Shown piece by piece: positions 3,372 through 35,502 of a stretch of 64,000 nucleotides of DNA (position 1 is its first letter; each line of letters begins with the position of its first letter). Made by a program: the position numbers and the translations under genes. The DNA is from Patescibacteria group bacterium (GTDB lineage Bacteria; Patescibacteriota; Patescibacteriia; JBDRGY01), in the NCBI GenBank assembly GCA_043817315.1, contig JBDRGY010000006.1, forward strand, positions 18,077 to 82,076, given 5' to 3'. A model generated the notes under the pieces. The model was not told the origin of the DNA, searched no databases, and saw only the letters and a program-made list of their open reading frames with translations.

Positions 3372-3399
3372 CGACAAATAATTATTTTCATCAGAAACA

Positions 3400-3639: not shown

Positions 3640-3643
3640 TCGA

Positions 3644-3719
3644 GGGCCCTTAGCTCATCTGGTAGAGCGCCGCCTTTGCATGGCGGAGGTGACCGGTTCG
3701 ATCCCGGTAGGGTCCACCA
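3644..3719 (+). tRNA. tRNA-Ala, anticodon UGC, CCA encoded
   Basis: Acceptor GGGCCCT/AGGGTCC with the G3:U70 Ala identity pair, anticodon stem CCGCC/GGCGG with loop TTTGCAT, T ACCGG-TTCGATC-CCGGT. Confidence 0.9.
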
Positions 3720-5773: not shown

Positions 5774-5995
5774 TCAGCTCCTTGATGTCCTTAGTCCCTG
5801 GTCAATGTGGGACAAAGAAAGAGGCATGTCGTCTTCGGGAAACGGTGTCTCTTCAAGGGTAGGCGGTATCGGCTTGCCCAGCAGAGCTGCTTGGCGCTGA
5901 GAGTGCGCCAGAGCTCTAATTCGGGTGTGATCGCTCTTGGTCCCCTCTTTAGCTGTTTGCATTCCTCGATCCATCACTTCATCGATATCAGCCAT
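5774..5995 (-). CDS. hypothetical 73-aa protein, GC-rich cassette gene 2
   Basis: ORF preceded on the minus strand by AAGGAG SD (TAAGGAGTAATACAGATG). Acidic C-terminus. No recognisable family. Confidence 0.5.
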   Translation of the reverse strand: MADIDEVMDRGMQTAKEGTKSDHTRIRALAHSQRQAALLGKPIPPTLEETPFPEDDMPLSLSHIDQGLRTSRS

Positions 5996-6010
5996 CTGTA
6001 TTACTCCTTA

Positions 6011-6406
6011 TCACAGTCCCAGTTCATCAACGGTCTCAGCCACCGGAATCCATCTGGCCTGACCGACCGTTTCGACCGGCTGCGGCTGCTCGGTGCAGTT
6101 GTCCTGCAACAGCTGGTAAAGATCCGGTTCAGTGGTGAAGTAATCGAGTCCACCGGTCCACATCAGATAGCCCAAATAAACTTCCAGGGCCAGTATCTGT
6201 TCTGATCCTGAATACCCCCTGACAAAAAATCGGGGGGCGATAGGTACGTCGACTACGGGATCAAAGGCTGTTCTGGACTGCACTGCCTTGGTCACTTTGG
6301 CCAAAATAGCTGCATCGGTTATTACCATCTTGGGGGTCTGCTGATGCTCATAGGGCAACACTTTCCAGAACTCAATCCGGGTGATGGTCTGCCCATCATA
6401 CTGCAT
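6011..6406 (-). CDS. hypothetical 131-aa protein, GC-rich cassette gene 1
   Basis: Double SD (AGGAGG…GGAGGTCCAAATG). A promoter-like TTGACT-16-TATAAT sits upstream on the minus strand (-10 at ~6438-6443; the -35 falls inside the last codons of the 6466-7725 gene). No recognisable family. Confidence 0.55.
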   Translation of the reverse strand: MQYDGQTITRIEFWKVLPYEHQQTPKMVITDAAILAKVTKAVQSRTAFDPVVDVPIAPRFFVRGYSGSEQILALEVYLGYLMWTGGLDYFTTEPDLYQLLQDNCTEQPQPVETVGQARWIPVAETVDELGL

Positions 6407-24293: not shown

Positions 24294-24516
24294 TTAATAG
24301 AATCCGATTTAAGAGCGCTTTGGCGATTTCTTCCCTTTCCTCTTGATCAGTCATATTGGTTGTAGCAACTAATCGTAGAGTGCTTCCTTCCTTAACGTGC
24401 TCCGGCAAATTTTTGATCGGCCAAAAAACCTCTTGTTGATCATCGGTGCGTATTACCGCATTTTTCTCCTCAAAACGATCAATTACTCCTTTTAAATGAT
24501 ACGGTCTCTCCGTCAT
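24280..24516 (-). CDS. DUF3006-family small protein
   Basis: GVIDRFEEKNAVIRTDDQQEVFWPIKNLPEHVKEGSTLRL matches the DUF3006 pattern. Start placed at the internal Met to avoid overlap with the hsp20 stop. Confidence 0.5.
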   Translation of the reverse strand: MTERPYHLKGVIDRFEEKNAVIRTDDQQEVFWPIKNLPEHVKEGSTLRLVATTNMTDQEEREEIAKALLNRILLNAQS

Positions 24517-24520
24517 GCCC

Positions 24521-25003
24521 TTATTCTTCAATTTCTTTTACTTTTATGGCCTGCGCCTTGGGATGATTGGCCTTGGGTAAGGTAACTGTTAAAATTCCAT
24601 TTTTGAGAGTTGCTCTTACTTTATCCGCCTTGATTTCCGTCGGCAAAATAATTGACCGGGAAAATCCTCCCCAATAGCACTCTCGGTATAAATAATTTTC
24701 ATCAGGGATGGCTTCATCTTCGCGCCGACGCCCCTTGATGGTTACCATGTCTTTATTTATGGAAATATCAATGTCCTCAGGTCTGACCCCGGCAATGGTT
24801 GACTTGATCATAATCTCTTTTTCAGTCTGATAAACGTCAATAGAAAGCTGGCCATCGTAACTTTCCTCTAACCAGTCTTCGTTGTATAAATCATCTACGA
24901 TCCCGGTTGGCTCCTCAGGTTTTTTCTGTTCCAAATAAAAAGAGTCCTCCGCTTTTTTGGTTGTTGCTTTAGTTCTTACTGCTGCTTTTTTGGTCTCAGC
25001 CAT
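24521..25003 (-). CDS. Hsp20/alpha-crystallin family small heat-shock protein
   Basis: Alpha-crystallin domain LSIDVYQTEKEIMIKSTIAGV…GILTVTLPK. Confidence 0.85.
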   Translation of the reverse strand: MAETKKAAVRTKATTKKAEDSFYLEQKKPEEPTGIVDDLYNEDWLEESYDGQLSIDVYQTEKEIMIKSTIAGVRPEDIDISINKDMVTIKGRRREDEAIPDENYLYRECYWGGFSRSIILPTEIKADKVRATLKNGILTVTLPKANHPKAQAIKVKEIEE

Positions 25004-25081
25004 AGGATGTACTAACTGTCTAAAATTCTTTTATTACTATAATACATATTACGGTTTTTGACAAGAAACAGGTTGTGGTAT

Positions 25082-25630
25082 TTAGATTTTTTGATAAATG
25101 AATATTTTATATTTTTTGCCTAACTTAACAACTTGTTCCCGGAAATTTTCTTTGTTTTTTAAGGAAAACATATAGGAGATAATTTTTGAGCCGGGTCGTA
25201 GCTGGGTAAAGGATTTTTCTAGTTGTTTCATCCCCTTAGTGGTTAAAAAGCAAAAAATAATATCATAAGGCTCTAGGGCAGACTTAAAGATGTCTCCTCG
25301 GACGAATTTTACTTTGGCTTTTTTACGATTGAATGCTTTCCTGATATTAGATACTAGTAACAGTATTTTGGAATTCTCAACACCCCAAACTTCTCCTTGA
25401 AGCTGCTTGGCTGCCCTGAGAACAATCCTGCCACTTCCTGATCCTAAATCAATTATCTTGTCTCCCTTTTTCATCTGGGCTAACTCTATCATTTTGTCAA
25501 TGATTTTAAAGGGAGTGGGAACATAGGGAACAACTTTACGGAAGCTCCAGAAAACAAAACCCAAATACAACACAAAGGTCAACATCAGTAGGGCAAAAAG
25601 CAGGTTTATGCTAACAATTAAATAGTCCAT
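25082..25630 (-). CDS. membrane-anchored class I SAM-dependent methyltransferase (small)
   Basis: N-terminal TM helix. SAM-binding motif IDLGSGSGRIVL. Confidence 0.55.
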   Translation of the reverse strand: MDYLIVSINLLFALLMLTFVLYLGFVFWSFRKVVPYVPTPFKIIDKMIELAQMKKGDKIIDLGSGSGRIVLRAAKQLQGEVWGVENSKILLLVSNIRKAFNRKKAKVKFVRGDIFKSALEPYDIIFCFLTTKGMKQLEKSFTQLRPGSKIISYMFSLKNKENFREQVVKLGKKYKIFIYQKI

Positions 25631-25644
25631 ATTCTAATTATACA

Positions 25645-25670
25645 AAAAACGGCTCAATTGGCCGAATTTT
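25645..25670 (-). terminator. hairpin terminator downstream of the 25910-31094 operon
   Basis: AAAAACGGC-tcaattg-GCCGAATTTT: CGGC/GCCG stem flanked by A and T runs, so bidirectional in appearance. Confidence 0.4.
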
Positions 25671-25909
25671 ATGAATTTAGATATTTTTAGTATAGCTCTC
25701 GAGGTACAAACCTATTTTTTCAATAACTCCTGATTCCTTGAAGCGGGGCAGAATGGGAGGGTGAGGGGGAAAGGCCGCTCCATCCCTGCAAAAAGAAATA
25801 GGGGTAAACTATATTCATAACTGTAAGTTTTAATCAAAACGATAAAAAGAAGAGTCCAGATTTCAGAATATATATATTCATCCATTCTAGACTCTTTTAT
25901 TTTAGCAGC

Positions 25910-26824
25910 TTACCTTGTTCGGTAATTGGGAAGATCAACCACACGAGGCAAAAGAGTGTCTGCAACATGGATTGTTCCCGAAGTGATACCTTGATCGCTG
26001 CCGATAGTGGCATTGAACACCTTTACTTCCTGCTGCACATCTACCATGAGTGTCAATCTCTGGTAGTGCTCAGCAAGATGCAGAAGCGTGTACAGAATGT
26101 TGCCTGCCATCTTACCGAGCGAGGGAACGTCTTGCAGTGGATGAACCCGCTGATCAAGAAACACTTGAGTAATCCGCTCTGGACCGTACTCGAGCACTGC
26201 TTGAAGCAGTATGGCAACCTCCACACTATAGCCAGAATAGAAGGAAGCATTCTCGAGGAATTTACGAGTCCCAGCGTACTCCCCAGCTAAAGGCTGTATG
26301 AAATCAGTGGATTCAGGAAAGAGCATGTTGAGGAAAGGACGAACTAAAAGCTCTGTCACCCGAGCATCACCTTTGGGCCGCTTATAGTACCCCTTGGTAA
26401 AGACTACTTCGGGGTCCATTAAAAAGGGAGCGACAATTCCTAGAATGAAACGTGGATGGATGTTTTCTATGTCGGTGTCAATCCAGGCGATGACATCGCC
26501 AGTTGTGAAGTATACACTACTCCAAAGATTCCATCCCTTTCCCCTTGATAGAGGAATAGATATGATTCGGGCGGCATCCTCGTCTCGGATTATTCTGATG
26601 TCAAACTGAGAGCACACACCCAAAGTGTTGTCGGTGGATCCGCTGTCAAACACTAGGATCTCATCAATCAGTGGTTGACACGACATGGCACATTCAATGA
26701 CACGACCAACTGTTGCTTCCTCATTCCTAACCGGGAGGACTAAGCTGATCGTTATCTGCCGCTCTTGCTTAAGCGACAAGAGGTAAACCATGTCAGAGGC
26801 GTCTAGGTACGATAAATGTTTCAT
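25910..26824 (-). CDS. GT81 glycosyltransferase, glucosyl-3-phosphoglycerate synthase (GpgS)-like
   Basis: LPVRNEEATVG…VFDSGSTDNT…RGKGWNLW…DTDI…GYYKRP…VTELLVRPFLNMLFPE…PLAGEYAGTR…GYSVEVAILL is collinear with GpgS/MpgS-type retaining GTs. Confidence 0.7.
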   Translation of the reverse strand: MKHLSYLDASDMVYLLSLKQERQITISLVLPVRNEEATVGRVIECAMSCQPLIDEILVFDSGSTDNTLGVCSQFDIRIIRDEDAARIISIPLSRGKGWNLWSSVYFTTGDVIAWIDTDIENIHPRFILGIVAPFLMDPEVVFTKGYYKRPKGDARVTELLVRPFLNMLFPESTDFIQPLAGEYAGTRKFLENASFYSGYSVEVAILLQAVLEYGPERITQVFLDQRVHPLQDVPSLGKMAGNILYTLLHLAEHYQRLTLMVDVQQEVKVFNATIGSDQGITSGTIHVADTLLPRVVDLPNYRTR

Positions 26825-27990
26825 GGCTCACCCCTTATCATGGTACTACATACCTTACGGACAGCAGCGCAACAGATGTCAACGAAGTGACTGGTCACAT
26901 CAGGATTAGTGTACAGATTGAATAGAGATGCTGCCACTTGCTGTGAGTTTACGGGCCTGTTAAAGCCGGCAAATAGTGCAGTTTGAGAAAGCGCCAAGGG
27001 GTAAAGACAGTTAATCATGGCACCTTCAGCTCTGACGGCATCCAAAAACCAATTGCGGTGTTTCATCCAGACTACAGGAAGAGTTGCTGTCAGGCAGTGA
27101 TTAACATGTCCATTTGCGTCAGTTTGAAATTGAAGCGGCAGGTCGCTCAACTTATCCCTATATCGCCTGGCAATTTCACCACGACGGCGATTGAGTTCCG
27201 CGAGCTTGCGTAATTGGACAAGCCCAATTGCCGCTTGCAGTTCAGTCATCACGTAATTGTAGCCAATCTTGTCGTAGTCGTAAACAGTCAGATCATCACT
27301 GATTAATCCGTGTCGGGTCAACGATCTGCACCGCTGAGCCAACTCTTCATTTCTGGTGATAATCATCCCGCCTTCACCACAGCTCATGTTCTTGGTCTGG
27401 TAAAAGCTGTAACAGGCTATATCACCAAAAGTGCCGACTATCTGTTCGCCAATAGTAGCGCCATGAGCTTGGGCACAATCTTCGACCAGCCATAAATCAT
27501 GTTCTCTGACTAGAAGAATGATCTGGCTCATCTCAACTGGGGCACCATAGAGGTGGACCACAATTACTGCCTTGGTTCTGGCAGTTATCTTGGAGCTAAG
27601 GTCCTCGACCGATAGGTTGAAAGTTGTGGGGTCGACGTCGCAGAAAACAACTCGCGCCCCGGTTTGTAAAACTACTGATGCTGTGGAGACAAAGGTTAAA
27701 TCTGGCACAATCACCTCGTCTCCAGGTCCTAGCTGCAAAACGTCAACAGCAGTATGTAGGGCAGTAGTACCGGATGTAGTGGAGATAGCAAAAGGGACTT
27801 GATGGTAAGCAGAGAACGCCTGCTCAAACTGCTGGACCATCTCGCCCATACCCGCTCTTGAAACTACGCCTTTTCCCATTACCTCCCATACTGCCTGCCG
27901 TTCTTCTTCACCGAAGACCCGGCCCCGTTTGAGGCCTTCTGGATAAACAGCTGATCCGCCGTTTATCGCCAGAGAAAGTCTTTCGCACAT
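26821..27990 (-). CDS. DegT/DnrJ/EryC1/StrS-family PLP-dependent sugar aminotransferase
   Basis: Family block FYQTKNMSCGEGGMIITRNEELAQRCRSLTRHG with a conserved Lys region. Confidence 0.85.
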   Translation of the reverse strand: MCERLSLAINGGSAVYPEGLKRGRVFGEEERQAVWEVMGKGVVSRAGMGEMVQQFEQAFSAYHQVPFAISTTSGTTALHTAVDVLQLGPGDEVIVPDLTFVSTASVVLQTGARVVFCDVDPTTFNLSVEDLSSKITARTKAVIVVHLYGAPVEMSQIILLVREHDLWLVEDCAQAHGATIGEQIVGTFGDIACYSFYQTKNMSCGEGGMIITRNEELAQRCRSLTRHGLISDDLTVYDYDKIGYNYVMTELQAAIGLVQLRKLAELNRRRGEIARRYRDKLSDLPLQFQTDANGHVNHCLTATLPVVWMKHRNWFLDAVRAEGAMINCLYPLALSQTALFAGFNRPVNSQQVAASLFNLYTNPDVTSHFVDICCAAVRKVCSTMIRGEP

Positions 27991-27993
27991 TGT

Positions 27994-29169
27994 TTACTCC
28001 TTAATCGTCAGAGCGAAGCTTTCACCAAGAGGAATGGGATTAGCTCCAATCAGCTCACAGATTGTCTGACCCAGATCGGCAAAACTAGCTCTAGTTCCCA
28101 GATTGGAGCCAATTTGGTGACTTCCATTGAGCACCAAAAGAGGTACGTATTCCCGAGTATGACCTCTTACAACAAAAACTGGGTCACAACCGTGATCGGC
28201 CACGATAAACAGTAAATCATCTTGACCGATAAGTTGTAACAATTCTCCCAACCTATCATCAAAGTACATGATATCACGAGCGTACTGGTTAGGCTTATTA
28301 CCGTGTCCGGACATGTCAAAATCCGGGACTACGAACATTGAGACACCGCTATGGTTCTTTCCCAGGTATTTACAAACAGAATCCATGATACCGGCAGAAT
28401 CCATGATACCGGGAATTATAACCGTTACGAACTCCTTCCCGATTATGGAGGTGAGGTGTTCTGTGGCTATAAACGGTACACCAACCTCTTGCATCCTTTG
28501 AAACAGATGTTCCTGACTTCTATCGAGAGGAACAACAATATCCGTCCGGTTCTTGGTACGAATGAAGCTTCCTTTCTCACCGATGAAAGTACGAGCAATA
28601 ATTCTTGCTACGTTCTTCCCGACGAAAAACCTGGACATCTTCCAGGCGATTTCGTGCAATCTCGCCGGAGGCATCACGTTCTCGTGAGCTGCTATCAGAA
28701 CTACGCCGTCATCACAGGTATAGACGATTGGCTGACCAGTGGCATAGTGTTCATCAGCGTATTCATCAAATACCCTGAAACCCGATACATAGGCGTTGCA
28801 GAGGGTTTCCGTACCCAGGACCTGTTGCATTTCACGCACCAAACCAACTGACATTCCCGGATAGAACGACGTGAATCGTTCTTTATAAATAACACCTGCC
28901 ATTTCCCAGACACCAAAGAAAGTGTCGTTACCTGAGGTGACCTCGGCCATACGTCCGTAATGGGCTAAAGGTTTATCAGCCGTTGGTATATTGCTGATGC
29001 CAACGATATTGCCAATACCCAATTTCTCGAGATTGGGGACTCGAAATCTTGGATGTGCTTGAGCTGCATGATGGAAGGTATGTGCGCCAACGCTCTTATA
29101 GTCTGCCGCGTCTAGCTGAGCGCCGATGCCGACGCTATCCATCACGAGGATAATGATACGTCGGAACAT
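27994..29169 (-). CDS. phosphopentomutase (DeoB)-like alkaline-phosphatase-superfamily phospho-sugar mutase
   Basis: IIILVMDSVGIGA…, DFDMSGHGN…, FIVADHGCDP…GHTREYVPLLV are collinear with DeoB. Start moved to the internal Met MFRRIIILVMDS, which has an SD. Contains an 18-bp in-frame tandem duplication at 28377-28412. Confidence 0.75.
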   Translation of the reverse strand: MFRRIIILVMDSVGIGAQLDAADYKSVGAHTFHHAAQAHPRFRVPNLEKLGIGNIVGISNIPTADKPLAHYGRMAEVTSGNDTFFGVWEMAGVIYKERFTSFYPGMSVGLVREMQQVLGTETLCNAYVSGFRVFDEYADEHYATGQPIVYTCDDGVVLIAAHENVMPPARLHEIAWKMSRFFVGKNVARIIARTFIGEKGSFIRTKNRTDIVVPLDRSQEHLFQRMQEVGVPFIATEHLTSIIGKEFVTVIIPGIMDSAGIMDSVCKYLGKNHSGVSMFVVPDFDMSGHGNKPNQYARDIMYFDDRLGELLQLIGQDDLLFIVADHGCDPVFVVRGHTREYVPLLVLNGSHQIGSNLGTRASFADLGQTICELIGANPIPLGESFALTIKE

Positions 29170-29191
29170 CACTCTTTTCCTTTCCGGCCTT

Positions 29192-30274
29192 TTAGCCAAT
29201 TCTAATCGGCAGACCGCTGGTAGCTGACAGATAAATCGCATCGATGATGCTCATTAGCCGACAAGCCTCAAAGGGTGTAGTCAACGGCTCAGCCTTGCCC
29301 TGTAGTGTCTGTACGAAGTTGACTGCAGCAGCTACACGCCCCATCGTACTGTCGAAAGGCACGGTGATGCTCTGATCGTTTGGTTGACCATTTTCCTGAG
29401 AGTAAACCTCACAGGTACCAGTAATGACCTCGCTAGTGTGATCCTGAAACAACCTGCCAACCCTCCCTCCGGCTTTCTGTCCCTGGAAGGTAACAAAGCA
29501 CTGTTCTTCTCGAACCATCTCGGCCCAAGAAGTATGGAGGCTAAGCACCTGTCCGCTTTCGAAAGTTACGATTGCGTGAGCACTAGATTCAACATCCGTA
29601 ATACCGTCTCCGTTCGGAACTCCGTAGGAACCCCGGCGCGTGGGGTCATCCATAAAGCAGTTGAAGATTTGACCCAACACATGTTTCGGCCTGGGATAAC
29701 CCATGAAATAGAGCGCCAAGTCTATCATGTGAAGTAAGTCTATCAGAGCTCCACCGCCAGCTACTTTTTGATTGGTAAACCAGTTTTCGAAACCCGGAAT
29801 ACCAGATCTACGAACCCAAACAGCCTGGGCGGAGTTAATCCGTCCAAAAAAACCACTCCTAATGCGACAAGTGATCTCCTGTGATTCTGGTCGTGCACGA
29901 TTGTTGAAGTCAAACAGCAGATGTTTACCAGAAGCTTCGGCAATTTTCATCATCTCCTGAACTTCCGCAGAGTTCATGGCCGGCGGCTTTTCACAGAATA
30001 CGTGCTTTCCAGCTTGTAGCGCCTGGATAGCCAACATTTTGTGAGACACCGGCGGAGTGAGAATACTGATGGCGTCAATTTGTCCGGACGCCCTATCCAG
30101 CATTTCTTCAAGAGTGTTGAAAGTTGCCAGAATACCGTAAGTCGCAGCTGCTTTCTGGGCAGCTGCTTGGTTTGTATCGACAACGCAGGTTATCTCCGCA
30201 CCAGCTGAACGAAATCCGTTAGCTTGGTATTTGAGCATTGCGCCTGCACCGACAATACCGATTTTCCAAGACAT
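29192..30274 (-). CDS. Gfo/Idh/MocA-family NAD(P)-dependent sugar oxidoreductase
   Basis: N-terminal Rossmann KIGIVGAGAMLKYQANGF…ISILTPPVSHKMLAIQALQAGKHVFCEKP. Start at MSWKIGIVG with an AAAGGA SD; the ORF-track start further upstream overlaps the next gene. Confidence 0.8.
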   Translation of the reverse strand: MSWKIGIVGAGAMLKYQANGFRSAGAEITCVVDTNQAAAQKAAATYGILATFNTLEEMLDRASGQIDAISILTPPVSHKMLAIQALQAGKHVFCEKPPAMNSAEVQEMMKIAEASGKHLLFDFNNRARPESQEITCRIRSGFFGRINSAQAVWVRRSGIPGFENWFTNQKVAGGGALIDLLHMIDLALYFMGYPRPKHVLGQIFNCFMDDPTRRGSYGVPNGDGITDVESSAHAIVTFESGQVLSLHTSWAEMVREEQCFVTFQGQKAGGRVGRLFQDHTSEVITGTCEVYSQENGQPNDQSITVPFDSTMGRVAAAVNFVQTLQGKAEPLTTPFEACRLMSIIDAIYLSATSGLPIRIG

Positions 30275-30287
30275 CTTTTTTTCCTTT

Positions 30288-31094
30288 CTAAGCCTTGGTA
30301 CAGACGAATGTTCCGCGTGACCTGTCCAATATGATCGGCTTTTCTTGGTCAATCATCAATCTCCTGATCTCTGCAGCTAAGGCAAGCTTAAGATCTGCAT
30401 CATTGGTCGATTCTTGAAAGCATGGCAGGGTAGTATAGTACGACATAAAGCCGTCTGCGTCCGGAAACACCAATTGAAATCCATAGAAATGATATTCTAC
30501 TTCTCCGAAAAGTCCATTCAGATACTCTCTGGCATTGTTGCAGTGGAAAGGTGAGCGAGAAAAGCGCACGTTAGTTTCAATACCAACTTGTGCTATTGCC
30601 TCCTGATGAGAGATCCTAAGAAGATCGTCCTCAAGGGTCTTTACACCCGTAGTGATGATGACTTTTCCTTCCTGTCTGACTACTCGAGCTGTTTCGTTCA
30701 ATCCTCTATCAAGGTCGCCGACGTGATTGAGCACATGCTTAGCAACCACCACATCAAATTGACCATCCCCGAAGGGCAAATCTTCAATCGATGCGATAAC
30801 ACATACTGGCGTTGCGATTGTGTTACAAACTCTCTGGCGGGTAATTTTCAATAGGTCTTGTGAGATGTCTACGGCAAAAACTTTCCCGCCCCTGTTCAGC
30901 CGTTGGCTGATGATGGCAACGTCTTTCCCTGTTCCCGAGCCGATGTCTAATACTAGCTCATCACCTTCAAGGTCGATAAAATCGATTCCATACCTGCCAA
31001 CACCCACGCCGTATCTATCCCAAGCAAGTTCTCTGTTGAGCAGATTTCGGGCGACACCGTACTGAATTCGCGGATCACTGTACTGGATCCTCAT
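30288..31094 (-). CDS. class I SAM-dependent methyltransferase
   Basis: Motif I VLDIGSGTGKDV, then FAVDIS…, consistent with the Methyltransf_11/25 fold. Confidence 0.75.
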   Translation of the reverse strand: MRIQYSDPRIQYGVARNLLNRELAWDRYGVGVGRYGIDFIDLEGDELVLDIGSGTGKDVAIISQRLNRGGKVFAVDISQDLLKITRQRVCNTIATPVCVIASIEDLPFGDGQFDVVVAKHVLNHVGDLDRGLNETARVVRQEGKVIITTGVKTLEDDLLRISHQEAIAQVGIETNVRFSRSPFHCNNAREYLNGLFGEVEYHFYGFQLVFPDADGFMSYYTTLPCFQESTNDADLKLALAAEIRRLMIDQEKPIILDRSRGTFVCTKA

Positions 31095-31209
31095 GTCTAT
31101 TTCTCCTTATCTTGTCAAGGTGCAATGTCAAATGATTTTGACTTTACATAGTAGCAAGAAATTTGTTATTGTGTCAATAGTAATACTATAAAGATGAACC
31201 ATATATAAT

Positions 31210-31596
31210 ATGACAAAAAAAATACAACAGCTATCAGTAAAAGGTCTATTCAGAAGAGGTGGAAATGTCCTCTTGGTTAAGGATCCTAAGGGGGTTTGGG
31301 AACTTCCTGGTGGTAGAATAAAACACGGCGAAGAACCAGAAGAAGCTCTTAGGAGAGAATTGGATGAGGAATTGGGCTGGTCAAAAGTTGATATCAAAAA
31401 TATTATCAATACTTGGAGTTTTTCTTCAAAGATTAATGGTACCTATTATCATTTTATTATAATTATATATACCTGCACTTCAGATGAAGAAAATATTAAA
31501 AAAAATGATGAATATATTAAATACCAATGGGTTCCGATTTCTGAGATTAATAATCTAAATATGCGAGATGGTTATAAAAAGATTTGTAAGTTATAG
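31210..31596 (+). CDS. NUDIX hydrolase
   Basis: Nudix box GGRIKHGEEPEEALRRELDEELG. The gene is very AT-rich, unlike the adjacent cluster. Confidence 0.75.
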   Translation: MTKKIQQLSVKGLFRRGGNVLLVKDPKGVWELPGGRIKHGEEPEEALRRELDEELGWSKVDIKNIINTWSFSSKINGTYYHFIIIIYTCTSDEENIKKNDEYIKYQWVPISEINNLNMRDGYKKICKL

Positions 31597-31742
31597 ATAA
31601 ATATGTTCACGTATTTCTTTGTTGCAAGGAGGAGTGCTCCCTCAGTTACTAGAAATTAGGAATTATTGAAAAAACTTAGTGTCTCATTACAAAGTCATAC
31701 CAAAAAAGAGTAAAGCTTAAAGAAGCTATAATATCATATACA

Positions 31743-31773
31743 AAATTCGGCCCGATAGGCCGAATTTTTTTGA
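31743..31773. terminator. perfect bidirectional hairpin terminator between the NUDIX gene and tRNA-Glu
   Basis: AAAATTCGGCC-cgata-GGCCGAATTTT (11-bp stem) followed by TTTT. Shares GGCCGAATTTT with the hairpin at 25645-25670. Confidence 0.5.
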
Positions 31774-31800
31774 ACCTAGATTTTTTTGCCTAAACTTCCT

Positions 31801-31875
31801 TGGTACCGCCAAGGGGAATCGAACCCCTGTTTTCAGGATGAAAACCTGATGTCCTAACCACTAGACGATGGCGGC
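31801..31875 (-). tRNA. tRNA-Glu, anticodon UUC, CCA encoded
   Basis: Minus strand: acceptor GCCGCCA/TGGCGGT, D GTCT/GGAC, anticodon stem TCAGG/CCTGA with loop TTTTCAT, T AGGGG-TTCGATT-CCCCT, discriminator A, CCA. Confidence 0.85.
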
Positions 31876-31947
31876 AGAAAAGATGTAAAAATATGATAAC
31901 TTATAATTCCCCTTAAGTCAATGTCTAAACCGTGCTAAGATTAGTTT

Positions 31948-32955
31948 ATGAAAATTCTAGGCATAGAAACATCATGTGACGAAACAGCCGCTGCTTTGAT
32001 TCAGGCTGAAGGTGAAAAAATTAAAGTTATCACTAGCGTCATTTCTTCGCAAGTTGATATCCATAGAAAATTTGGCGGAATTGTTCCGGAAGTGGCAGCA
32101 CGGGAACACCTGAAAAACATTTTACCGATTATTGACCAGGCTTTGGGACGAAATAAATGGTCTGACGTTGATTATATTGCCGTGACTTCTGGTCCTGGCT
32201 TAGTCACCTCCTTACTAGTGGGAGTGGAAACAGCTAAAACACTATCGCTGGTCCTTAAAATTCCCTTACTGTCCATAAACCACATTGAAGCTCATGTTTA
32301 TGCCAACTGGCTGTCCGGCAGGATTAAATTGCCGGCTTTAAGTTTGGTAGTTTCTGGCGGCCATACCCAATTAATTTTGATCAATAATCAGGGTCACTAT
32401 AAAATTATCGGTCAAACCTTGGACGATGCTATCGGCGAATGCTTTGATAAAGTGGCCAAGATTCTAAATGTTGGTTATCCGGGCGGTCCGGCGATTGAAA
32501 AGTTAGCACGATCCGGTGATTCTAAAAAGATCAACTTTCCTCGTCCTCTAATTAACCAGTTAAACTATAATTTTAGTTTCTCTGGTCTAAAAACTTCTGT
32601 ACTTTATTTCACTCGATCGGTTCCTAATAAAGGGTTCCTGAAGCCCGACATTTGTGCCAGCTTTCAGCAGGCAGCCGTTGACGTTTTGGTGGCCAAAACG
32701 GTACGAGCTACTAATGAGCATAAGGTAAAGACGGTCATGCTGGCCGGTGGAGTTGCTGCTAACCAGAAATTGCGCACCACTCTAAAAAACCAACTAAAAA
32801 AACAGTCTCCCAAAACATCATTTATGGTGCCGGATTTTCCTCTGTGTACCGACAACGCTTTAATGATTGCCATAGCTGGTTATTTTAAGGCCAAGAAGGG
32901 GCTGACCACTCCCTGGCAGCAATTAACTGCTGACCCCAATTGGCAGTTGAGTTAA
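31948..32955 (+). CDS. tsaD: tRNA N6-adenosine threonylcarbamoyltransferase TsaD
   Basis: MKILGIETSCDETAAALI…HIEAH…SGGHTQL…GVAANQKLR is typical of TsaD/Kae1. Confidence 0.9.
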   Translation: MKILGIETSCDETAAALIQAEGEKIKVITSVISSQVDIHRKFGGIVPEVAAREHLKNILPIIDQALGRNKWSDVDYIAVTSGPGLVTSLLVGVETAKTLSLVLKIPLLSINHIEAHVYANWLSGRIKLPALSLVVSGGHTQLILINNQGHYKIIGQTLDDAIGECFDKVAKILNVGYPGGPAIEKLARSGDSKKINFPRPLINQLNYNFSFSGLKTSVLYFTRSVPNKGFLKPDICASFQQAAVDVLVAKTVRATNEHKVKTVMLAGGVAANQKLRTTLKNQLKKQSPKTSFMVPDFPLCTDNALMIAIAGYFKAKKGLTTPWQQLTADPNWQLS

Positions 32956-32956
32956 C

Positions 32957-33190
32957 TTGACTCAATGCTGTCTAGGCCCTAAAATAGAACTATCATTAAA
33001 TCAAGCTAATAGCGCTATGATCAGAGTCTGTGTCGCTCTGAAAGCTGAGGGTCCTAAAAGGCCGACTGCCTCGATAAGTCCTCCGGGTACGTCCGTCATC
33101 GCGTAAAATAAGCGTCCTGTCTCCCGGGAGTACAGGGAATTAAGGTGGTACCGCCTGAGAGGGTCCTTAAACGTACTAAGGACTTTTTTA
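32957..33190 (+). promoter_or_regulatory. T-box riboswitch leader of valS (promoter TTGACT-17-TAAAAT at 32957-32985, T-box sequence at 33138-33155, terminator at 33163-33188)
   Basis: AATTAAGGTGGTACCGCC matches the T-box consensus AAUUAGGGUGGNACCGCG, followed by GTCCTTA-aacgtac-TAAGGAC + T6. Lies upstream of an aminoacyl-tRNA synthetase gene. Stem I contains a GA-rich (AUGAUCAGAG) segment. Confidence 0.6.
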
Positions 33191-33192
33191 AT

Positions 33193-35502
33193 ATGAAAAA
33201 AGAGTTAAGCAAACAATATAATCCCTTCGACGTTGAAGACAAAATTTACCAACAATGGGAAAAATCTGGATATTTTAATCCGGATAAACTGCCGGATGCC
33301 AAGAAAAGAAAGCCCTATTCCATTGCTATGCCTCCGCCCAATGTAACCGGCGACCTCCACCTGGGGCACGCCATTACCCTAACCATAGAAGACGTCTTGG
33401 CTCGCTTTAAAAGAATGCAGGGGTACGCCGCTCTATGGCTTCCGGGGACTGACCACGCAGGAATTTCTACCCAAATAATGGTTGAAAGATTGATCGCCAA
33501 GTCCGGCTTAGACCGCCATAAATTAGGTCGCCAGAAATTCTTAGAAAGGGTCTGGCAATGGAAAAATGAGTATGGCGATATCATTACCAAACAGATTCGC
33601 AAGATGGGCGCTTCCTGTGATTGGTCGCGAGAGCATTTCACTTTAGACCCCAAATTAACCAAAGCCACACAAACTGCTTTTATCAAACTGTTTAACGACG
33701 GGTTGATTTATCGCGGCAATCGTATTATTAATTGGTGTCCCCGATGTGCTTCTGCAATTTCTGACCTGGAAGTGACTCACCGGGAACATAAAACAAAATT
33801 ATGGCACCTTAAATATCCACTTTTACAAAATGGCCAGCCAAGTAATCAATTTCTGATTGTAGCTACGACCCGTCCTGAAACTATGCTGGGCGATACCGCC
33901 GTGGCCGTCAATCCTAAAGATAAACGCTACAAGAAACTAGTCGGGCAAAGGGTCTTGCTACCCTTAATGGACCGGGCCATCCCTGTTATAGCTGATTCCC
34001 GAGTGGATATGGAGTTTGGCACCGGAGCAGTTAAAGTAACTCCGGCTCATGATCCTTTGGACTGGGAGATCGGTCAAAAGCACCGGCTAGAAGCCATCCA
34101 GGTAATAGACGAGAGAACCTTTATCACCAAAAACGGCGGCCGCTACGCCGGGCTGAAAGCTAAAGAAGCACGGCAGAAAATAATTATCGATTTGCAAAAT
34201 ATAAAACTGCTGGATAAGGAAGAAGATTATGACCACTCTATTGCTCGTTGTGAAAGATGCAATTCGGTAATCGAGCCGCTAATCTCTAAACAATGGTTTG
34301 TAAAGATAAAACCTTTGGCCCAGTCAGCTATTGAGGAAGTTAAGAAGGGTAAAATAAAAATCACCCCTAAACGCTTTGAAAAAGTGTACTTCCACTGGAT
34401 GAATAATATCAAAGACTGGTGCATTTCCCGTCAGCTGTGGTGGGGGCATCAAATACCTATCTGGTATTGCCAATCCTGCGATGAAGCTATTGCCTCGGTA
34501 ACCAAACCAAAATCCTGTACAAAGTGTACGGACAAAAAGTTTAAGCAAGATGAAGACACTCTAGATACCTGGTTCAGCTCCGGCCTATGGACTTTTTCCA
34601 CTTTGGGCTGGCCAGCCAAAACCTCTGACCTTAAGCGATTCCACCCCACCGATCTAATGGAGACCGGTTGGGATATTCTCTTTTTCTGGGTGGCCAGAAT
34701 GATTATGCTAAGTCTCTATTTGCACCAGGAAAAACCTTTTAACCAAGTATACCTTCATGGACTAATCCTGGACCGCCAAGGTAGAAAAATGAGTAAGTCT
34801 AAAGGCACCGGACTAGATCCCCTGGTCTTAACTGAAAAATATGGTACCGATGCTTTGAGGATGTCTTTGGTGATCGGAAATTCTGCCGGCCAGGACTTTC
34901 GTCTCTATGAGGAAAAAGTGGCCGGCTACCGCAATTTTTCCAATAAACTCTGGAACGTATCCCGCTACATTCTAATGCAGGAATATAAATGTTGTTCCTA
35001 CGACGCCTCTGCTTTGGCTGACCAGTGGATTATCAGCCGCCTCAATCAAGTAATCGAAGAAACCACCACCAATTTGGAGAACCTCCGTTTCTCAGAGGCC
35101 GGGACTTTGCTATATGAGTTTATCTGGCATGAGTTGGCTGACTGGTATCTAGAAGCAACTAAATTTCGGCCCAATCCTGACCTCCTCTATCACTTATTAA
35201 TAAACGTCCTCAAGCTGCTACACCCCTTCATGCCTTTCATCACCGAAGAAGTCTGGTCCCAACTTCCTCATCAGAACCTTCTGATGATAGAAGATTGGCC
35301 CGTAACTAAAAAGGCTCTAATAAAAAGCGAATCTATTGATCGCTTTCAGCAGTTACAAGGTTTGGTGACTGAATTTCGTAATTATAAAAAGGACCAAAAA
35401 ATTCCGCCCAAGGAAGTTGTCGGGATTAAAAAGATAATACCTGCCAAGATCAAAGATCAGAAAGGGCTTATTGAATTTTTGGCCAACGTAAAAATTGCTT
35501 AA
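33193..35502 (+). CDS. valS: valine--tRNA ligase
   Basis: Class I HIGH (PPNVTGDLHLGHA) and KMSKS (GRKMSKSKG) motifs plus ValRS-wide similarity. Start moved to the ATG after the leader terminator. Confidence 0.9.
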   Translation: MKKELSKQYNPFDVEDKIYQQWEKSGYFNPDKLPDAKKRKPYSIAMPPPNVTGDLHLGHAITLTIEDVLARFKRMQGYAALWLPGTDHAGISTQIMVERLIAKSGLDRHKLGRQKFLERVWQWKNEYGDIITKQIRKMGASCDWSREHFTLDPKLTKATQTAFIKLFNDGLIYRGNRIINWCPRCASAISDLEVTHREHKTKLWHLKYPLLQNGQPSNQFLIVATTRPETMLGDTAVAVNPKDKRYKKLVGQRVLLPLMDRAIPVIADSRVDMEFGTGAVKVTPAHDPLDWEIGQKHRLEAIQVIDERTFITKNGGRYAGLKAKEARQKIIIDLQNIKLLDKEEDYDHSIARCERCNSVIEPLISKQWFVKIKPLAQSAIEEVKKGKIKITPKRFEKVYFHWMNNIKDWCISRQLWWGHQIPIWYCQSCDEAIASVTKPKSCTKCTDKKFKQDEDTLDTWFSSGLWTFSTLGWPAKTSDLKRFHPTDLMETGWDILFFWVARMIMLSLYLHQEKPFNQVYLHGLILDRQGRKMSKSKGTGLDPLVLTEKYGTDALRMSLVIGNSAGQDFRLYEEKVAGYRNFSNKLWNVSRYILMQEYKCCSYDASALADQWIISRLNQVIEETTTNLENLRFSEAGTLLYEFIWHELADWYLEATKFRPNPDLLYHLLINVLKLLHPFMPFITEEVWSQLPHQNLLMIEDWPVTKKALIKSESIDRFQQLQGLVTEFRNYKKDQKIPPKEVVGIKKIIPAKIKDQKGLIEFLANVKIA

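What the first reader, a model, noticed from the sequence alone, without database searches (positions are those of the whole stretch)
25645..31875. GC-elevated five-gene amino-sugar/glycoside cluster next to tRNA-Glu: candidate undescribed pathway
Five co-directional, tightly packed or overlapping genes at 25910-31094 encode a GpgS-like GT81, a DegT aminotransferase, a DeoB-like phosphomutase, a Gfo/Idh/MocA oxidoreductase and a SAM methyltransferase. The oxidoreductase plus DegT pair is the logic of kanosamine (3-amino-3-deoxyglucose) synthesis (NtdC/NtdA in Bacillus), but here a phosphomutase replaces the NtdB phosphatase and a GpgS-type GT and an O/N-methyltransferase are added. That suggests a sugar-phosphate to 3-keto to 3-amino to C1-phosphate to glycoside to methylated product route; glucosyl-glycerate-type compatible solutes are the nearest known analogues for the GT. 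Hand counts of sampled 60-nt lines give ~47-55% G+C here against ~37-45% in most flanking genes, and the adjacent NUDIX gene is very AT-rich. The block ends beside the 3' end of tRNA-Glu and is bracketed by hairpins sharing GGCCGAATTTT (25645-25670 and 31743-31773). Together this points to a horizontally acquired metabolic island. I do not know of this gene combination as a described pathway.
Basis: partly seen in the sequence, partly recalled or inferred. Interest (0 to 1): 0.75.

Follow-up and report, generated by a model that had tools for sequence, protein, structure and literature searches.

The report
Mobile amino-sugar gene cassette in Patescibacteria
A six-gene block in an ultra-small (Patescibacteria) bacterium is a conserved, laterally transferred cassette that most likely makes an undescribed amino-sugar glycoside, using remodelled versions of two well-known enzymes.

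Summary
The five co-directional genes are real and their family assignments hold: GT81/GpgS-like glycosyltransferase, DegT aminotransferase, phosphopentomutase-like mutase, Gfo/Idh/MocA oxidoreductase and SAM methyltransferase. The host is a Patescibacteria (CPR) MAG. GT + DegT + mutase + NUDIX, usually with an oxidoreductase, recur together in every CPR-clade locus with enough sequence. None of 74 ordinary GpgS loci has them. Tailoring genes vary (methyltransferase, BtaA-like SAM enzyme, orphan ATP-grasp protein). The GT and the mutase both form clade-specific subfamilies. Catalytic residues are kept, but pocket positions that are highly conserved in GpgS and nearly invariant in canonical DeoB are switched. 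Lateral mobility is supported: the block is the window's strongest tetranucleotide and codon-usage outlier, and in relatives it has different flanks and discordant GC in both directions. The tRNA and hairpin "bracket" is not supported as an integration signature. The product is unknown. My best guess is a 3-amino-3-deoxy-hexosyl glycoside of a carboxylate-bearing acceptor, methylated here. The main rival is a puromycin-type 3'-amino-nucleoside cassette (Pur10/Pur4/Pur7 logic). I found no prior description.

The parts
25910..26824 (-). GT81-family (GpgS-like) glycosyltransferase, CPR-specific variant subfamily; last gene of the operon.
   Evidence: It scores 246.6 bits against NCBIfam NF010496 GpgS, just below the 262 cut-off. 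Mycobacterial GpgS structures score 143-147 bits. GKG, DxD, RVTE, QPLxGEY, GYxVE and RxH are kept. The clade-specific switches are E->W, K->S/A/T, GG->DA with a roughly 10-residue shorter loop, N->L and R->L.
26821..27990 (-). DegT/DnrJ/EryC1-family PLP aminotransferase (389 aa).
   Evidence: Pfam PF01041 scores 342 bits. No NCBIfam equivalog cut-off is reached. The motif SFYQTKNMSCGEGG, read in the translation, contains the Lys I take to be the Schiff-base lysine (own knowledge). The best solved relative is 7b0d at 201 bits; NtdA scores 133 bits. It is 79% identical in L001 and 48-66% identical in distant cassettes.
27994..29169 (-). Variant phosphopentomutase-family phosphomutase ('PPMv'). 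The ORF extends to 29241, but the likely start is M25 at 29169.
   Evidence: It scores 315 bits against NF003766 (cut-off 256) but is below the TIGR01696 cut-off. B. cereus PPM scores 233 bits. Thr85, D13, D286, H291, D327, H328, H339, R193, R197, R208 and R212 are kept. The switches are K83N, H89V, T133F, S154C, A155D, S157G, Q160L, G239E, K240H, T337R and D338G. Both cassette types share them, and 32 of 120 homologues carry them with no intermediates.
29192..30274 (-). Gfo/Idh/MocA NAD(P) oxidoreductase, probably a sugar C3 dehydrogenase. The ORF extends to 30352, but the likely start is M27 at 30274, giving 360 aa as in L001.
   Evidence: Pfam PF01408, PF02894 and PF22725 all match. The best solved relative is DgpA1 (9m3d), 169 bits over the full length, then DgpA at 122 bits; the next hit is only 75 bits. 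NCBIfam partial hits are iolG, levoglucosan dehydrogenase and UDP-GlcNAc 3-dehydrogenase.
30288..31094 (-). Class I SAM-dependent methyltransferase; first gene of the operon; an accessory (tailoring) member.
   Evidence: Pfam Methyltransf_11, _31 and _25 match. Solved relatives give only weak matches. A homologue is seen only in L001/L002 (78% identity) among the loci, and it is absent from the other cassettes.
31095..31209 (.). 115-nt divergent intergenic region with back-to-back promoter-like sites for the operon (minus strand) and NUDIX (plus strand).
   Evidence: The consensus scan finds TTGACA-18-TACTAT with a TG on the minus strand at 31177->31148 (10 of 12 matches), and TTTACA-18-TATTGT on the plus strand at 31143-31172. 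These are consensus matches only, not evidence of function.
31210..31596 (+). Small MutT/NudI-like NUDIX hydrolase, divergently transcribed; a constant member of the cassette.
   Evidence: Pfam PF00293 scores 75.5 bits. The nearest named relatives are NudI, MutT and Ap4A hydrolase. A 40-65% identical NUDIX gene lies next to the cassette in L001-L006 and L008-L012; L090 also has an adjacent NUDIX gene.
25842..25896 (-). Terminator-like hairpin plus U-run immediately after the GT stop codon; likely end of the operon.
   Evidence: The RNA fold shows an 11-bp stem, AAGAGUCUAGA...UCUGGACUCUU, followed by CUUUUUAU. L002 and L087 also have a GC-rich hairpin followed by a T-run directly after the GT gene.
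31742..31773 (.). Perfect palindrome (11-bp arms, 5-nt loop) flanked by A and T runs. It is a bidirectional terminator-like element between NUDIX and tRNA-Glu.
   Evidence: The sequence was read directly. The motif search places both arms there.

Best explanation
The block at 25842-31773 is one copy of a conserved, laterally mobile biosynthetic cassette. In these data it is confined to Patescibacteria, apart from MAG labels that look doubtful.

Its core has five genes: a sugar C3 dehydrogenase (Gfo/Idh/MocA), a DegT aminotransferase, a remodelled phosphopentomutase-family mutase (PPMv), a remodelled GT81 glycosyltransferase, and a small NUDIX hydrolase. The window's version adds a SAM methyltransferase.

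Most likely mechanism (inferred, not shown):
1. A hexose is oxidised at C3 and transaminated to a 3-amino-3-deoxy (kanosamine-type) sugar. This happens either on the nucleotide sugar or sugar phosphate before transfer, or on the glycoside after transfer.
2. PPMv moves a phosphate on the (amino)sugar phosphate to provide the C1-phosphate form.
3. The GT81 variant attaches the sugar to a small acceptor that bears a carboxylate but probably no 3-phosphate.
4. The methyltransferase then methylates the product, most likely on the new amine, as GenN does.
5. NUDIX probably acts on a nucleotide-linked intermediate or by-product. Its step is not resolved.

What is shown: the gene families, intact catalytic residues, conserved linkage, subfamily-specific pocket remodelling, and mobility. 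What is inferred: the substrates, the order of steps and the product.
For: Linkage:
- All CPR-clade GT loci with at least 45% identity (L001-L012) have DegT and/or PPMv beside the GT, and all but the truncated L007 also have NUDIX. None of 74 GpgS-type loci has them.
- Pfam-labelled contexts agree.
- Matching longest-contig lengths tie at least 17 PPMv proteins to GT-clade proteins.

Chemistry:
- The oxidoreductase is closest to the glycoside 3-dehydrogenase DgpA (169 bits).
- The non-orthologous oxidoreductase in type-B cassettes is closest to UDP-GlcNAc 3-dehydrogenase (154 bits). Both point to oxidation of a hexose at C3.
- DegT contains the Lys in SFYQTK that I take to be catalytic (own knowledge) and scores 342 bits against PF01041.

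GT:
- It keeps the donor-sugar residues (K114, D134, Y229, E232 equivalents) and the carboxylate-binding RVTE, as defined in PMC2581804.
- It loses K/R117, N260 and a C-terminal Arg, and turns the GG before RVTE into DA within a shortened acceptor loop.

PPMv:
- It keeps the nucleophile Thr, all metal ligands and the Arg cluster.
- It changes 11 pocket positions that are invariant or nearly so in canonical enzymes, gaining Asp155 and Glu239.
- The changes are identical in two clades that are only about 40% identical to each other.

Precedents:
- Kanosamine from UDP-glucose or glucose-6-phosphate (PMC8788734).

Mobility.
Against: - No enzyme was assayed and no ligand was modelled.
- NUDIX, a constant member, has no necessary role in this scheme.
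- The cassette contains no sugar-1-phosphate nucleotidylyltransferase.
- Several type-A cassettes (L003/L004, L008) show no oxidoreductase beside the other genes within the sequence available. The C3 oxidation may therefore be supplied elsewhere, or may not be universal.
- DeoB-family enzymes are known for furanose pentose phosphates, not hexoses.
- The roles I assign to the switched GT and PPM residues rest partly on my memory of structures whose papers were not readable here.
- The DegT family's best named matches are C4 aminotransferases (PseC, LegC), so amination at C3 is not established.
Confidence: 0.4

Rival explanations
1. The cassette makes a 3'-amino-3'-deoxy-nucleoside or nucleotide by puromycin/ADG logic. 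The oxidoreductase oxidises the 3'-OH of an NTP (as Pur10/AdgB does). DegT transaminates it (Pur4). NUDIX removes pyrophosphate or detoxifies the 3'-amino-NTP (Pur7). PPMv either replaces the Pur3 phosphatase or interconverts 3-amino-3-deoxyribose 5- and 1-phosphate for a nucleoside phosphorylase. The product would be a chain-terminating antimetabolite used against hosts, competitors or phages.
For: - A dehydrogenase with RifL-like similarity, an aminotransferase and a Nudix hydrolase, plus a monophosphatase, form a documented compact and laterally acquired cassette (PMC9239236, PMC11641026).
- The window's NUDIX is of the small MutT/NudI NTP-pyrophosphatase type.
- PPMv derives from a pentose-phosphate mutase, and its new acidic pocket residues would suit a 3-amino-ribose phosphate.
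- L090 has an inositol-monophosphatase-family gene about 700 nt from NUDIX. Pur3 is a monophosphatase, and I recall it as belonging to that family.
- This scheme gives NUDIX a natural role.
Against: - The GT81 variant is present in every cassette, keeps the hexose-donor and carboxylate-acceptor residues, and has no role here.
- The oxidoreductases resemble hexoside and UDP-hexose 3-dehydrogenases.
- Apart from L090, no Pur3-type (inositol-monophosphatase-family) gene was seen in or beside the cassettes examined.
Confidence: 0.2
2. The cassette supplies a nucleotide-activated 3-amino sugar for a cell-envelope glycan, comparable to UDP-GlcNAc3N or UDP-kanosamine in surface polysaccharide, S-layer or wall decoration. 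The GT81 variant would transfer it onto an envelope precursor rather than a small solute.
For: - The type-B oxidoreductase's best named match is UDP-GlcNAc 3-dehydrogenase.
- The DegT's best named matches are nucleotide-sugar aminotransferases.
- In L005 the cassette lies between a Mur ligase gene and murB.
- The window itself is rich in envelope genes, including a Wzy_C ligase-like protein, a PBP, an amidase and VanW.
Against: - In L005 the cassette is a sharp AT-rich insert (27-32% GC versus 43-50% in the mur genes). The adjacency therefore looks like an insertion site rather than co-function.
- Other cassettes have unrelated flanks.
- The characterised GT81 enzymes among the hits (GpgS, MpgS) act on a small soluble acceptor (3-phosphoglycerate), and the carboxylate-binding RVTE is kept.
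- The cassette has no flippase, polymerase or lipid-carrier enzyme.
Confidence: 0.15
3. The cassette is a catabolic or salvage module for a host-derived glycoside or nucleotide sugar. The DgpA-like dehydrogenase would initiate deglycosylation by C3 oxidation. NUDIX would cleave nucleotide sugars to sugar-1-phosphate. PPMv would feed the sugar phosphate into central metabolism.
For: - I recall DgpA as a catabolic C-glycoside 3-dehydrogenase; the tool output only names it as the best solved relative.
- NUDIX followed by a phosphomutase is a coherent breakdown sequence.
- Patescibacteria are generally described as scavengers (general knowledge).
Against: - A Leloir-type GT and an aminotransferase with intact catalytic residues are biosynthetic enzymes.
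- SAM-dependent and ATP-grasp tailoring genes are typical of biosynthesis.
- The cassettes contain no transporter, lyase or hydrolase.
Confidence: 0.08
4. This is ordinary glucosylglycerate (compatible-solute) synthesis by a normal GpgS. The neighbouring DeoB, DegT, Gfo, methyltransferase and NUDIX genes would be unrelated housekeeping genes that merely lie alongside.
For: The GT is annotated as GpgS by some sources and scores close to the NCBIfam cut-off. PPMv is annotated as phosphopentomutase.
Against: - The linkage is conserved across types that are only 45-52% identical. It persists through rearranged gene order and lateral transfer, and is absent from 74 GpgS loci.
- Both enzymes carry clade-specific switches, at positions highly conserved in GpgS and nearly invariant in canonical DeoB.
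- The five genes share one atypical composition.
Confidence: 0.04

Closest known systems
Glucosyl-3-phosphoglycerate synthase GpgS (GT81; M. tuberculosis Rv1208, M. hassiacum), with the GpgS/GpgP route to glucosylglycerate
   Same: It has the same GT-A fold family. GKG(K114), DxD, RVTE (carboxylate contact), QPLxGEY, GYxVE and RxH are conserved. Scores are 143-147 bits to solved GpgS structures and 246.6 bits to the NCBIfam model.
   Different: - It falls below the equivalog cut-off.
- K/R117, N260 and a C-terminal Arg are lost, GG becomes DA, and the acceptor loop is about 10 residues shorter.
- No 74-locus GpgS control has DegT, PPMv or NUDIX nearby, whereas those genes accompany this clade in all but one context examined (L088).
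- No recognisable phosphatase gene was seen in the cassettes examined.
Gentamicin/kanamycin sugar tailoring: GT, then GenD2 (dehydrogenase), GenS2 (DegT aminotransferase), GenN (N-methyltransferase)
   Same: The four-enzyme logic is the same: glycosyltransfer, oxidation of a sugar C3 hydroxyl, transamination and SAM-dependent methylation (PMC4340712).
   Different: The GT family and acceptor differ (GT81 with a small carboxylate acceptor, not a pseudodisaccharide). The cassette also has a mutase and a NUDIX gene that the gentamicin steps lack. Orthology to the Gen enzymes was not tested. The host is a reduced-genome CPR bacterium, not an actinomycete.
Kanosamine pathways: NtdC/NtdA/NtdB (glucose-6-phosphate route) and RifL/RifK/RifM/RifN (UDP-glucose route)
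   Same: Both use a Gfo-type 3-dehydrogenase and a DegT-type aminotransferase to make 3-amino-3-deoxyglucose (PMC8788734).
   Different: There is no NtdB or RifM phosphatase and no RifN kinase. NtdA is only a mid-ranking relative of the DegT protein (133 versus 201 bits). The cassette adds a GT, a mutase, a NUDIX gene and tailoring genes, so free kanosamine is probably not the end product.
3'-Amino-3'-deoxynucleoside cassette Pur10/Pur4/Pur7/Pur3 (puromycin, A201A, cystocin; AdgB-E for 3'-amino-3'-deoxyguanosine)
   Same: A compact and compositionally distinct cassette combines a Gfo/RifL-like dehydrogenase, an aminotransferase and a small Nudix hydrolase.
   Different: The window has no Pur3-type monophosphatase. 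The cassette contains a GT81 enzyme and a phosphomutase that the Pur and Adg sets lack. The oxidoreductase resembles hexoside and UDP-hexose dehydrogenases.
Phosphopentomutase DeoB (alkaline-phosphatase superfamily; B. cereus PPM)
   Same: It aligns over the full length at 233 bits. The nucleophile Thr85, both metal sites and the conserved Arg residues are kept.
   Different: Eleven positions that are invariant or nearly so in canonical enzymes are replaced as a block (K83N, H89V, T133F, S154C/A, A155D, S157G, Q160L, G239E, K240H, T337R, D338G), with no intermediates. In the loci examined it lies beside the GT and DegT genes, and no deo-type nucleoside-catabolism gene was seen in those cassettes.

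Membership tests
GpgS (GT81 glucosyl-3-phosphoglycerate synthase) | GT-A catalytic core: GKG Lys, DxD, and the Glu/Tyr donor-sugar residues | tested here: met
   K96, D116-x-D118, Y199 and E202 are conserved in all clade members. The residue roles come from PMC2581804.
GpgS (GT81 glucosyl-3-phosphoglycerate synthase) | Reaches the curated equivalog score | tested here: not met
   The window GT scores 246.6 bits against the NF010496 cut-off of 262. The type-B GT scores 242.3 bits.
GpgS (GT81 glucosyl-3-phosphoglycerate synthase) | Acceptor pocket suited to 3-phosphoglycerate (carboxylate and phosphate contacts) | tested here: inconclusive
   The carboxylate-binding RVTE is kept. K/R117, N260 and a C-terminal Arg, which are conserved in GpgS, are replaced, and the beta6-alpha6 loop is shortened with GG->DA. 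Which of these residues touch the phosphate could not be confirmed from the readable literature.
GpgS (GT81 glucosyl-3-phosphoglycerate synthase) | Enzymatic activity: NDP-glucose plus 3-phosphoglycerate | not testable with these tools
   This needs an in vitro assay.
Phosphopentomutase DeoB | Alkaline-phosphatase-type core with Thr nucleophile and two metal sites | tested here: met
   T107 (equivalent to Thr85) and the equivalents of D13, D286, H291, D327, H328 and H339 are all conserved.
Phosphopentomutase DeoB | Curated family score | tested here: inconclusive
   NF003766 scores 315 bits, above its 256 cut-off. TIGR01696 scores 290.9 bits, below its 341.2 cut-off.
Phosphopentomutase DeoB | Conserved substrate-pocket residues of canonical enzymes (K83, H89, T133, S154, S157, Q160, G239, K240, T337, D338) | tested here: not met
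   All are replaced. The same replacements occur in both cassette clades, in 32 of 120 homologues, with no intermediates.
DegT/DnrJ/EryC1/StrS sugar aminotransferases | Family HMM match and the catalytic Schiff-base lysine (as opposed to the His of dehydratases) | tested here: met
   PF01041 scores 342 bits over 27-377. The motif SFYQTKNMSCGEGG contains the Lys (translation; its assignment as the Schiff-base lysine is my own knowledge). No specific equivalog (PseC, LegC, WecE and others) is reached.
NtdC/NtdA/NtdB kanosamine operon | NtdA-type aminotransferase, NtdB HAD phosphatase, NtdC dehydrogenase | tested here: not met
   NtdA is only about the 34th solved relative (133 bits versus 201). 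No HAD phosphatase lies in or beside the cassette. NtdC could not be compared because no sequence was available.
Pur10/Pur4/Pur7/Pur3 aminonucleoside cassette | Co-located Gfo-like dehydrogenase, aminotransferase and Nudix hydrolase | tested here: met
   All three families are present and conserved together. This is an architectural match only.
Pur10/Pur4/Pur7/Pur3 aminonucleoside cassette | Pur3-type monophosphatase, and orthology to the Pur/Adg proteins | tested here: not met
   There is no inositol-monophosphatase-family gene in the window (tblastn). Only L090 has one nearby. Direct comparison with Pur and Adg sequences was not possible.
tRNA-targeted integrative genomic island | Integrase gene and direct repeats derived from the tRNA 3' end | tested here: not met
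   No integrase or transposase family lies in or beside the block. The 11-mer repeat lies outside the tRNA, and two of its three copies are arms of one hairpin. tRNA adjacency is not conserved in relatives.
tRNA-targeted integrative genomic island | Atypical composition, and variable genomic context among relatives | tested here: met
   Tetranucleotide z is 4.7 to 5.2 and RSCU z is 3.1. In relatives the flanks differ and GC is discordant in both directions.

The most novel reading that the evidence does not exclude
The six genes encode a self-contained six-step pathway to a new class of Patescibacteria metabolite: an N-methylated 3-amino-3-deoxy-hexosyl glycoside of a hydroxy- or amino-acid. 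On this reading, two textbook enzymes have acquired new jobs. The phosphopentomutase descendant acts as an amino-hexose-phosphate mutase. The small NUDIX protein supplies the missing activation step, either by running as a sugar-1-phosphate nucleotidylyltransferase (the reverse of pyrophosphorolysis, as I recall is reported for NUDT5) or by generating the sugar bisphosphate that primes the mutase. The cassette, exchanged laterally among episymbiotic ultra-small bacteria and with swappable amine-tailoring enzymes, would then be an accessory trait for host interaction or antagonism.
Probability: 0.12. Interest if true: 0.8.

Novelty: new variant of a known kind. Interest (0 to 1): 0.6.

Why it matters
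Patescibacteria have very small genomes and are usually described as having almost no biosynthetic or secondary metabolism. This cassette is conserved, repeatedly transferred and modular, and its tailoring genes vary. That would give these organisms a dedicated small-molecule pathway, possibly tied to their episymbiotic lifestyle.

It also provides two clean examples of neofunctionalised enzyme subfamilies, a GT81 variant and a phosphopentomutase variant. Current pipelines name them "glucosyl-3-phosphoglycerate synthase" (in some sources) and "phosphopentomutase". Those names are probably wrong for this clade and would mislead metabolic reconstructions of CPR genomes, for example the nucleoside-salvage pathways in which DeoB is counted.

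The cassette is about 5.7 kb, small enough to be tested directly by heterologous expression.

Tried and rejected
1. An empty-site test for insertion. A metagenome scan with the flanking TsaD protein returned only two distant, short contigs, so it was uninformative.
2. Rfam on 24000-33500. It found only tRNA-Glu and a sub-threshold T-box, and nothing in the cassette's untranslated regions.
3. The GC-rich 240-nt spacer after the GT gene (25671-25909). Its fold z-score is -1.25, which is not significant, and it is not conserved in L002, L087 or L090. I rejected it as a regulatory RNA.
4. The GGCCGAATTTT 'bracket'. There are three exact copies, two of them arms of one hairpin. With one mismatch allowed there are 6 copies against 2.5 expected, and 3 of 100 shuffles do as well. 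I treat it as similar terminator arms, not att sites.
5. Defence-system models (PADLOC). Only generic methyltransferase and NUDIX domain hits appeared.
6. Viral contigs. There was no CPR-clade GT, only three distant GpgS-type hits.
7. Literature. No paper combined these gene families, or Patescibacteria with GpgS.
8. The papers on the GpgS-PGA ternary complex and the B. cereus PPM structure were not in the readable library. The residue roles for K117/N260 in GpgS, and for the PPM pocket residues, metal ligands and Arg cluster, rest partly on my own recollection.
9. Solved-structure searches for the methyltransferase, the NUDIX protein and the type-B oxidoreductase gave only generic matches.
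10. The murC/murB adjacency in L005 as a functional clue. I rejected it because the cassette there is a sharp low-GC insert.

Full report
**What is in the sequence**

Five minus-strand ORFs occupy 25910-31094. In transcription order they are:
- a SAM methyltransferase (30288-31094);
- a Gfo/Idh/MocA oxidoreductase (29192-30352, likely start at 30274);
- a phosphopentomutase-family protein (27994-29241, likely start at 29169);
- a DegT aminotransferase (26821-27990);
- a GT2/GT81 glycosyltransferase (25910-26824).

The junctions are a 4-nt overlap, a 3-nt gap, and short gaps once the likely starts are used. Those starts give the same protein lengths as the 76-84% identical relatives L001/L002.

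Pfam and NCBIfam confirm every family:
- The GT scores 246.6 bits against the GpgS equivalog, just under its 262 cut-off.
- The mutase passes one phosphopentomutase model (315 bits against 256) and fails the other (291 against 341).
- DegT scores 342 bits against PF01041.

A NUDIX gene (31210-31596) is transcribed divergently from a 115-nt region with back-to-back promoter-like sites. tRNA-Glu lies at 31801-31875 on the minus strand. The exact GT protein is on record from a 114-kb contig of a "Patescibacteria group bacterium" MAG.

**The observation**

The five genes have 46.7-49.2% GC, against 42.4 +/- 3.3% for 46 other ORFs. It is confined to codon positions 1 and 2: GC3 z-scores are only 0.4-1.0, and lysine is 3.4% against 8.1%.

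Even so, the 5-kb window 26001-31000 is the strongest tetranucleotide outlier in the 64 kb (z 4.7; 5.2 after correcting for base composition). The five-gene block also has the most deviant synonymous codon usage of all 44 contiguous five-gene blocks (z 3.1).

NUDIX is the lowest-GC gene in the window (31.8%).

The hairpin at 31742-31768 is a perfect 11-bp palindrome between two convergent genes, which makes it a bidirectional terminator-like element. The 25645-25670 hairpin is weak (5 bp) and lies just upstream of the next gene. The operon's own terminator-like hairpin follows the GT stop directly. The shared 11-mer has three exact copies, two of them arms of the same hairpin.

**The genes form a conserved unit, and NUDIX is part of it**

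I looked up contexts of GT homologues at 84%, 72%, 66%, 62%, 48-52% and 45% identity. In every case DegT, the mutase and a NUDIX gene sit beside the GT wherever the contig allows. Gene order is rearranged in two layouts:
- Type A (window, L001/2, L003/4, L007/L087, L008, L090): NUDIX divergent, then [MT]-[Gfo]-mutase-DegT-GT.
- Type B (L005/6/9, L010, L011, L012/L089): DegT-Gfo2-mutase-GT-[DUF3419]-NUDIX-255-aa protein.

A scan of species-representative genomes returned 80 loci. The six that fall in the CPR clade all carry the partner genes. None of the 74 GpgS-type loci (37-44% identity; Chloroflexota and others) carries any of them. The only stray matches there were one unrelated Gfo and two weak methyltransferase hits. 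One clade member (L088) is solitary.

The oxidoreductase is non-orthologous between the two types (21-24% identity). It is not seen next to some type-A cassettes.

**Two remodelled enzyme subfamilies**

I compared the CPR-clade GTs with 55 GpgS-type sequences and M. hassiacum GpgS.
- Kept: the Lys of GKG, DxD, RVTE (Val186/Thr187 bind the acceptor carboxylate in M. tuberculosis GpgS, PMC2581804), QPLxGEY, GYxVE and RxH.
- Switched as a near-binary signature: E->W and K/R->S/A/T after GKG, GG->DA before RVTE within a loop about 10 residues shorter, N->L after RxH, and a C-terminal R->L.

The net effect is fewer basic or polar residues and one new acid around the acceptor site.

The mutase keeps the nucleophile Thr85, all six metal ligands and the conserved arginines of B. 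cereus phosphopentomutase. It replaces eleven positions that are invariant or nearly so in canonical enzymes: K83N, H89V, T133F, S154C/A, A155D, S157G, Q160L, G239E, K240H, T337R and D338G. Types A and B are only about 40% identical to each other, no closer than either is to Firmicutes DeoB, yet they share this signature. Among 120 homologues, 32 carry it, the rest are canonical, and there are no intermediates.

So both enzymes look catalytically competent but retargeted. The names that automatic annotation gives them ("glucosyl-3-phosphoglycerate synthase" in some sources, and "phosphopentomutase") are probably wrong for this clade.

**Clues to the chemistry**

- The window's oxidoreductase is much closer to the glycoside 3-dehydrogenases DgpA1 and DgpA (169 and 122 bits, full length) than to any other solved Gfo-family protein (next best 75 bits).
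- The type-B oxidoreductase's best named match is archaeal UDP-GlcNAc 3-dehydrogenase (154 bits). Two unrelated oxidoreductases therefore both point to C3 oxidation of a hexose.
- The DegT protein has the lysine that marks an aminotransferase. Its best solved relatives are a glutamine:scyllo-inosose-type transaminase, perosamine synthases and BtrR. NtdA scores only 133 bits.
- NUDIX resembles the small NTP pyrophosphatases NudI and MutT.

Documented precedents exist for each reading:
- oxidation, transamination and N-methylation at C3'' of an already attached sugar (GenD2/GenS2/GenN, PMC4340712);
- kanosamine from UDP-glucose (RifL/RifK/RifM) or glucose-6-phosphate (NtdC/NtdA/NtdB) (PMC8788734);
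- 3'-amino-3'-deoxynucleosides from NTPs (Pur10/Pur4/Pur7/Pur3; AdgB-E) (PMC11641026, PMC9239236).

**Most likely mechanism and its rivals**

I favour (confidence about 0.4) a pathway to a 3-amino-3-deoxy-hexosyl glycoside of a carboxylate-bearing, probably non-phosphorylated acceptor. In the window's version the product is methylated. In this scheme PPMv provides the C1-phosphate form of the (amino)sugar, and the oxidoreductase and DegT act either before or after glycosyl transfer. This accounts for five of the six genes and for the amine- and carboxylate-directed tailoring enzymes. It leaves NUDIX and the nucleotide-activation step unexplained.

The main rival (about 0.2) is an aminonucleoside cassette. 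It explains NUDIX and the pentose ancestry of the mutase, but not the ever-present GT.

I rate the other rivals lower:
- An envelope-glycan precursor role (about 0.15). The murC/murB adjacency in L005 is an AT-rich insertion, not co-function.
- Glycoside catabolism (about 0.08).
- Plain glucosylglycerate synthesis next to unrelated genes (about 0.04), which is contradicted by synteny and by the residue signatures.

**Mobility**

The cassette's composition disagrees with its flanks in several genomes, and in both directions:

| Locus | Cassette GC | Flank GC |
|---|---|---|
| L002 | 48-54% | 28-46% |
| L003 | 47-49% | 37-40% |
| L005 (between a Mur ligase gene and murB) | 27-32% | 43-50% |
| L089 | 41-44% | 46-50% |
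| L090 | 52-54% | 58-60% |

Flanking genes differ in every genome. In the window the flanks are housekeeping genes: RuvB, NIF3, VanW and HSP20 on one side, and tRNA-Glu, TsaD and ValRS on the other.

This supports repeated lateral transfer among Patescibacteria. Nothing supports tRNA-directed integration:
- there is no integrase;
- the repeat lies outside the tRNA;
- tRNA adjacency is not conserved;
- the cassette does not appear on viral contigs.

An empty-site test failed for lack of close relatives.

**Novelty and verdict**

I found no description of this gene set. Every enzyme family is known, and so is the oxidation/transamination/glycosylation/methylation logic. I therefore rate it a new variant of a known kind, not categorically new.

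Four things are new:
- the combination itself;
- the constant NUDIX partner;
- the two retargeted subfamilies;
- the restriction of the cassette to Patescibacteria and its mobility among them.

Interest is 0.6.

Noticed in passing
window 1865-1941: A tRNA-Ile with anticodon TAT (UAU) heads a tRNA cluster (Ile-Val, then Leu-Val-Ala at 3183-3719). From my own knowledge, bacteria usually decode AUA with a lysidine-modified CAU tRNA, so a UAU tRNA-Ile is uncommon.
   Followed up: no
window 33008-33171: A T-box-leader-like match lies just upstream of the valyl-tRNA synthetase gene (33145-35502). It scores 38.5 bits, well below the gathering score of 93, with E 7.8e-6. The position is plausible but the score is sub-threshold.
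   Followed up: no
window 5807-6205: This 132-aa ORF has the highest GC in the window (53.6%; GC3 64.7%; z about 3.5) and no Pfam match. It may be another foreign or spurious ORF next to a Wzy_C-type ligase gene.
   Followed up: partly
window 25082-25630: A low-GC (35.7%) 182-aa methyltransferase with an N-terminal hydrophobic helix lies directly downstream of the cassette. It has no counterpart next to the cassette in any relative, so it is not part of the unit.
   Followed up: partly
L005 6598-12138 (also L006, L009): A type-B cassette (GC 27-32%) sits as a sharp AT-rich insert between a Mur ligase gene (46% GC) and murB (43% GC). That places it inside a cell-wall gene cluster.
   Followed up: yes
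L010 1-3488: A 4-kb contig binned as 'Nanoarchaeota archaeon' carries a type-B cassette (mutase fragment, GT, DUF3419, NUDIX, ATP-grasp protein). The genes are 47-57% identical to Patescibacteria versions. This is either misbinning or transfer between ultra-small bacteria and DPANN archaea. Several other CPR-clade loci carry doubtful labels such as 'uncultured Gammaproteobacteria'.
   Followed up: no
L005 11371-12138; L089 9480-10241; L010 2709-3488; L011 6048-6821: This is an orphan 250-260-aa protein family with only 34 members in 5.8 billion proteins, all cassette-associated. It has no Pfam or PDB sequence match and is confidently predicted as a minimal ATP-grasp fold.
   Followed up: yes
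L088 10911-11192; L089 3040-3333: A DUF3467 gene lies next to the solitary CPR-clade GT in L088 and at the head of the cassette in L089. L089 also has two NUDIX genes. Whether DUF3467 is functionally linked is unknown.
   Followed up: no
window 39167-42805: A 1212-aa protein carries fibronectin-III, bacterial Ig-like and purple-acid-phosphatase N-terminal domains. It is likely a large surface protein.
   Followed up: no
homologue list, (P0066-P0120): Many GpgS-type proteins outside the CPR clade are fused to a PTS_EIIA_2 (PF00359) or universal stress protein (PF00582) domain. This suggests regulated GpgS variants in organisms such as Chloroflexota and Spirochaetes. No CPR-clade member in that list has such a fusion.
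   Followed up: no
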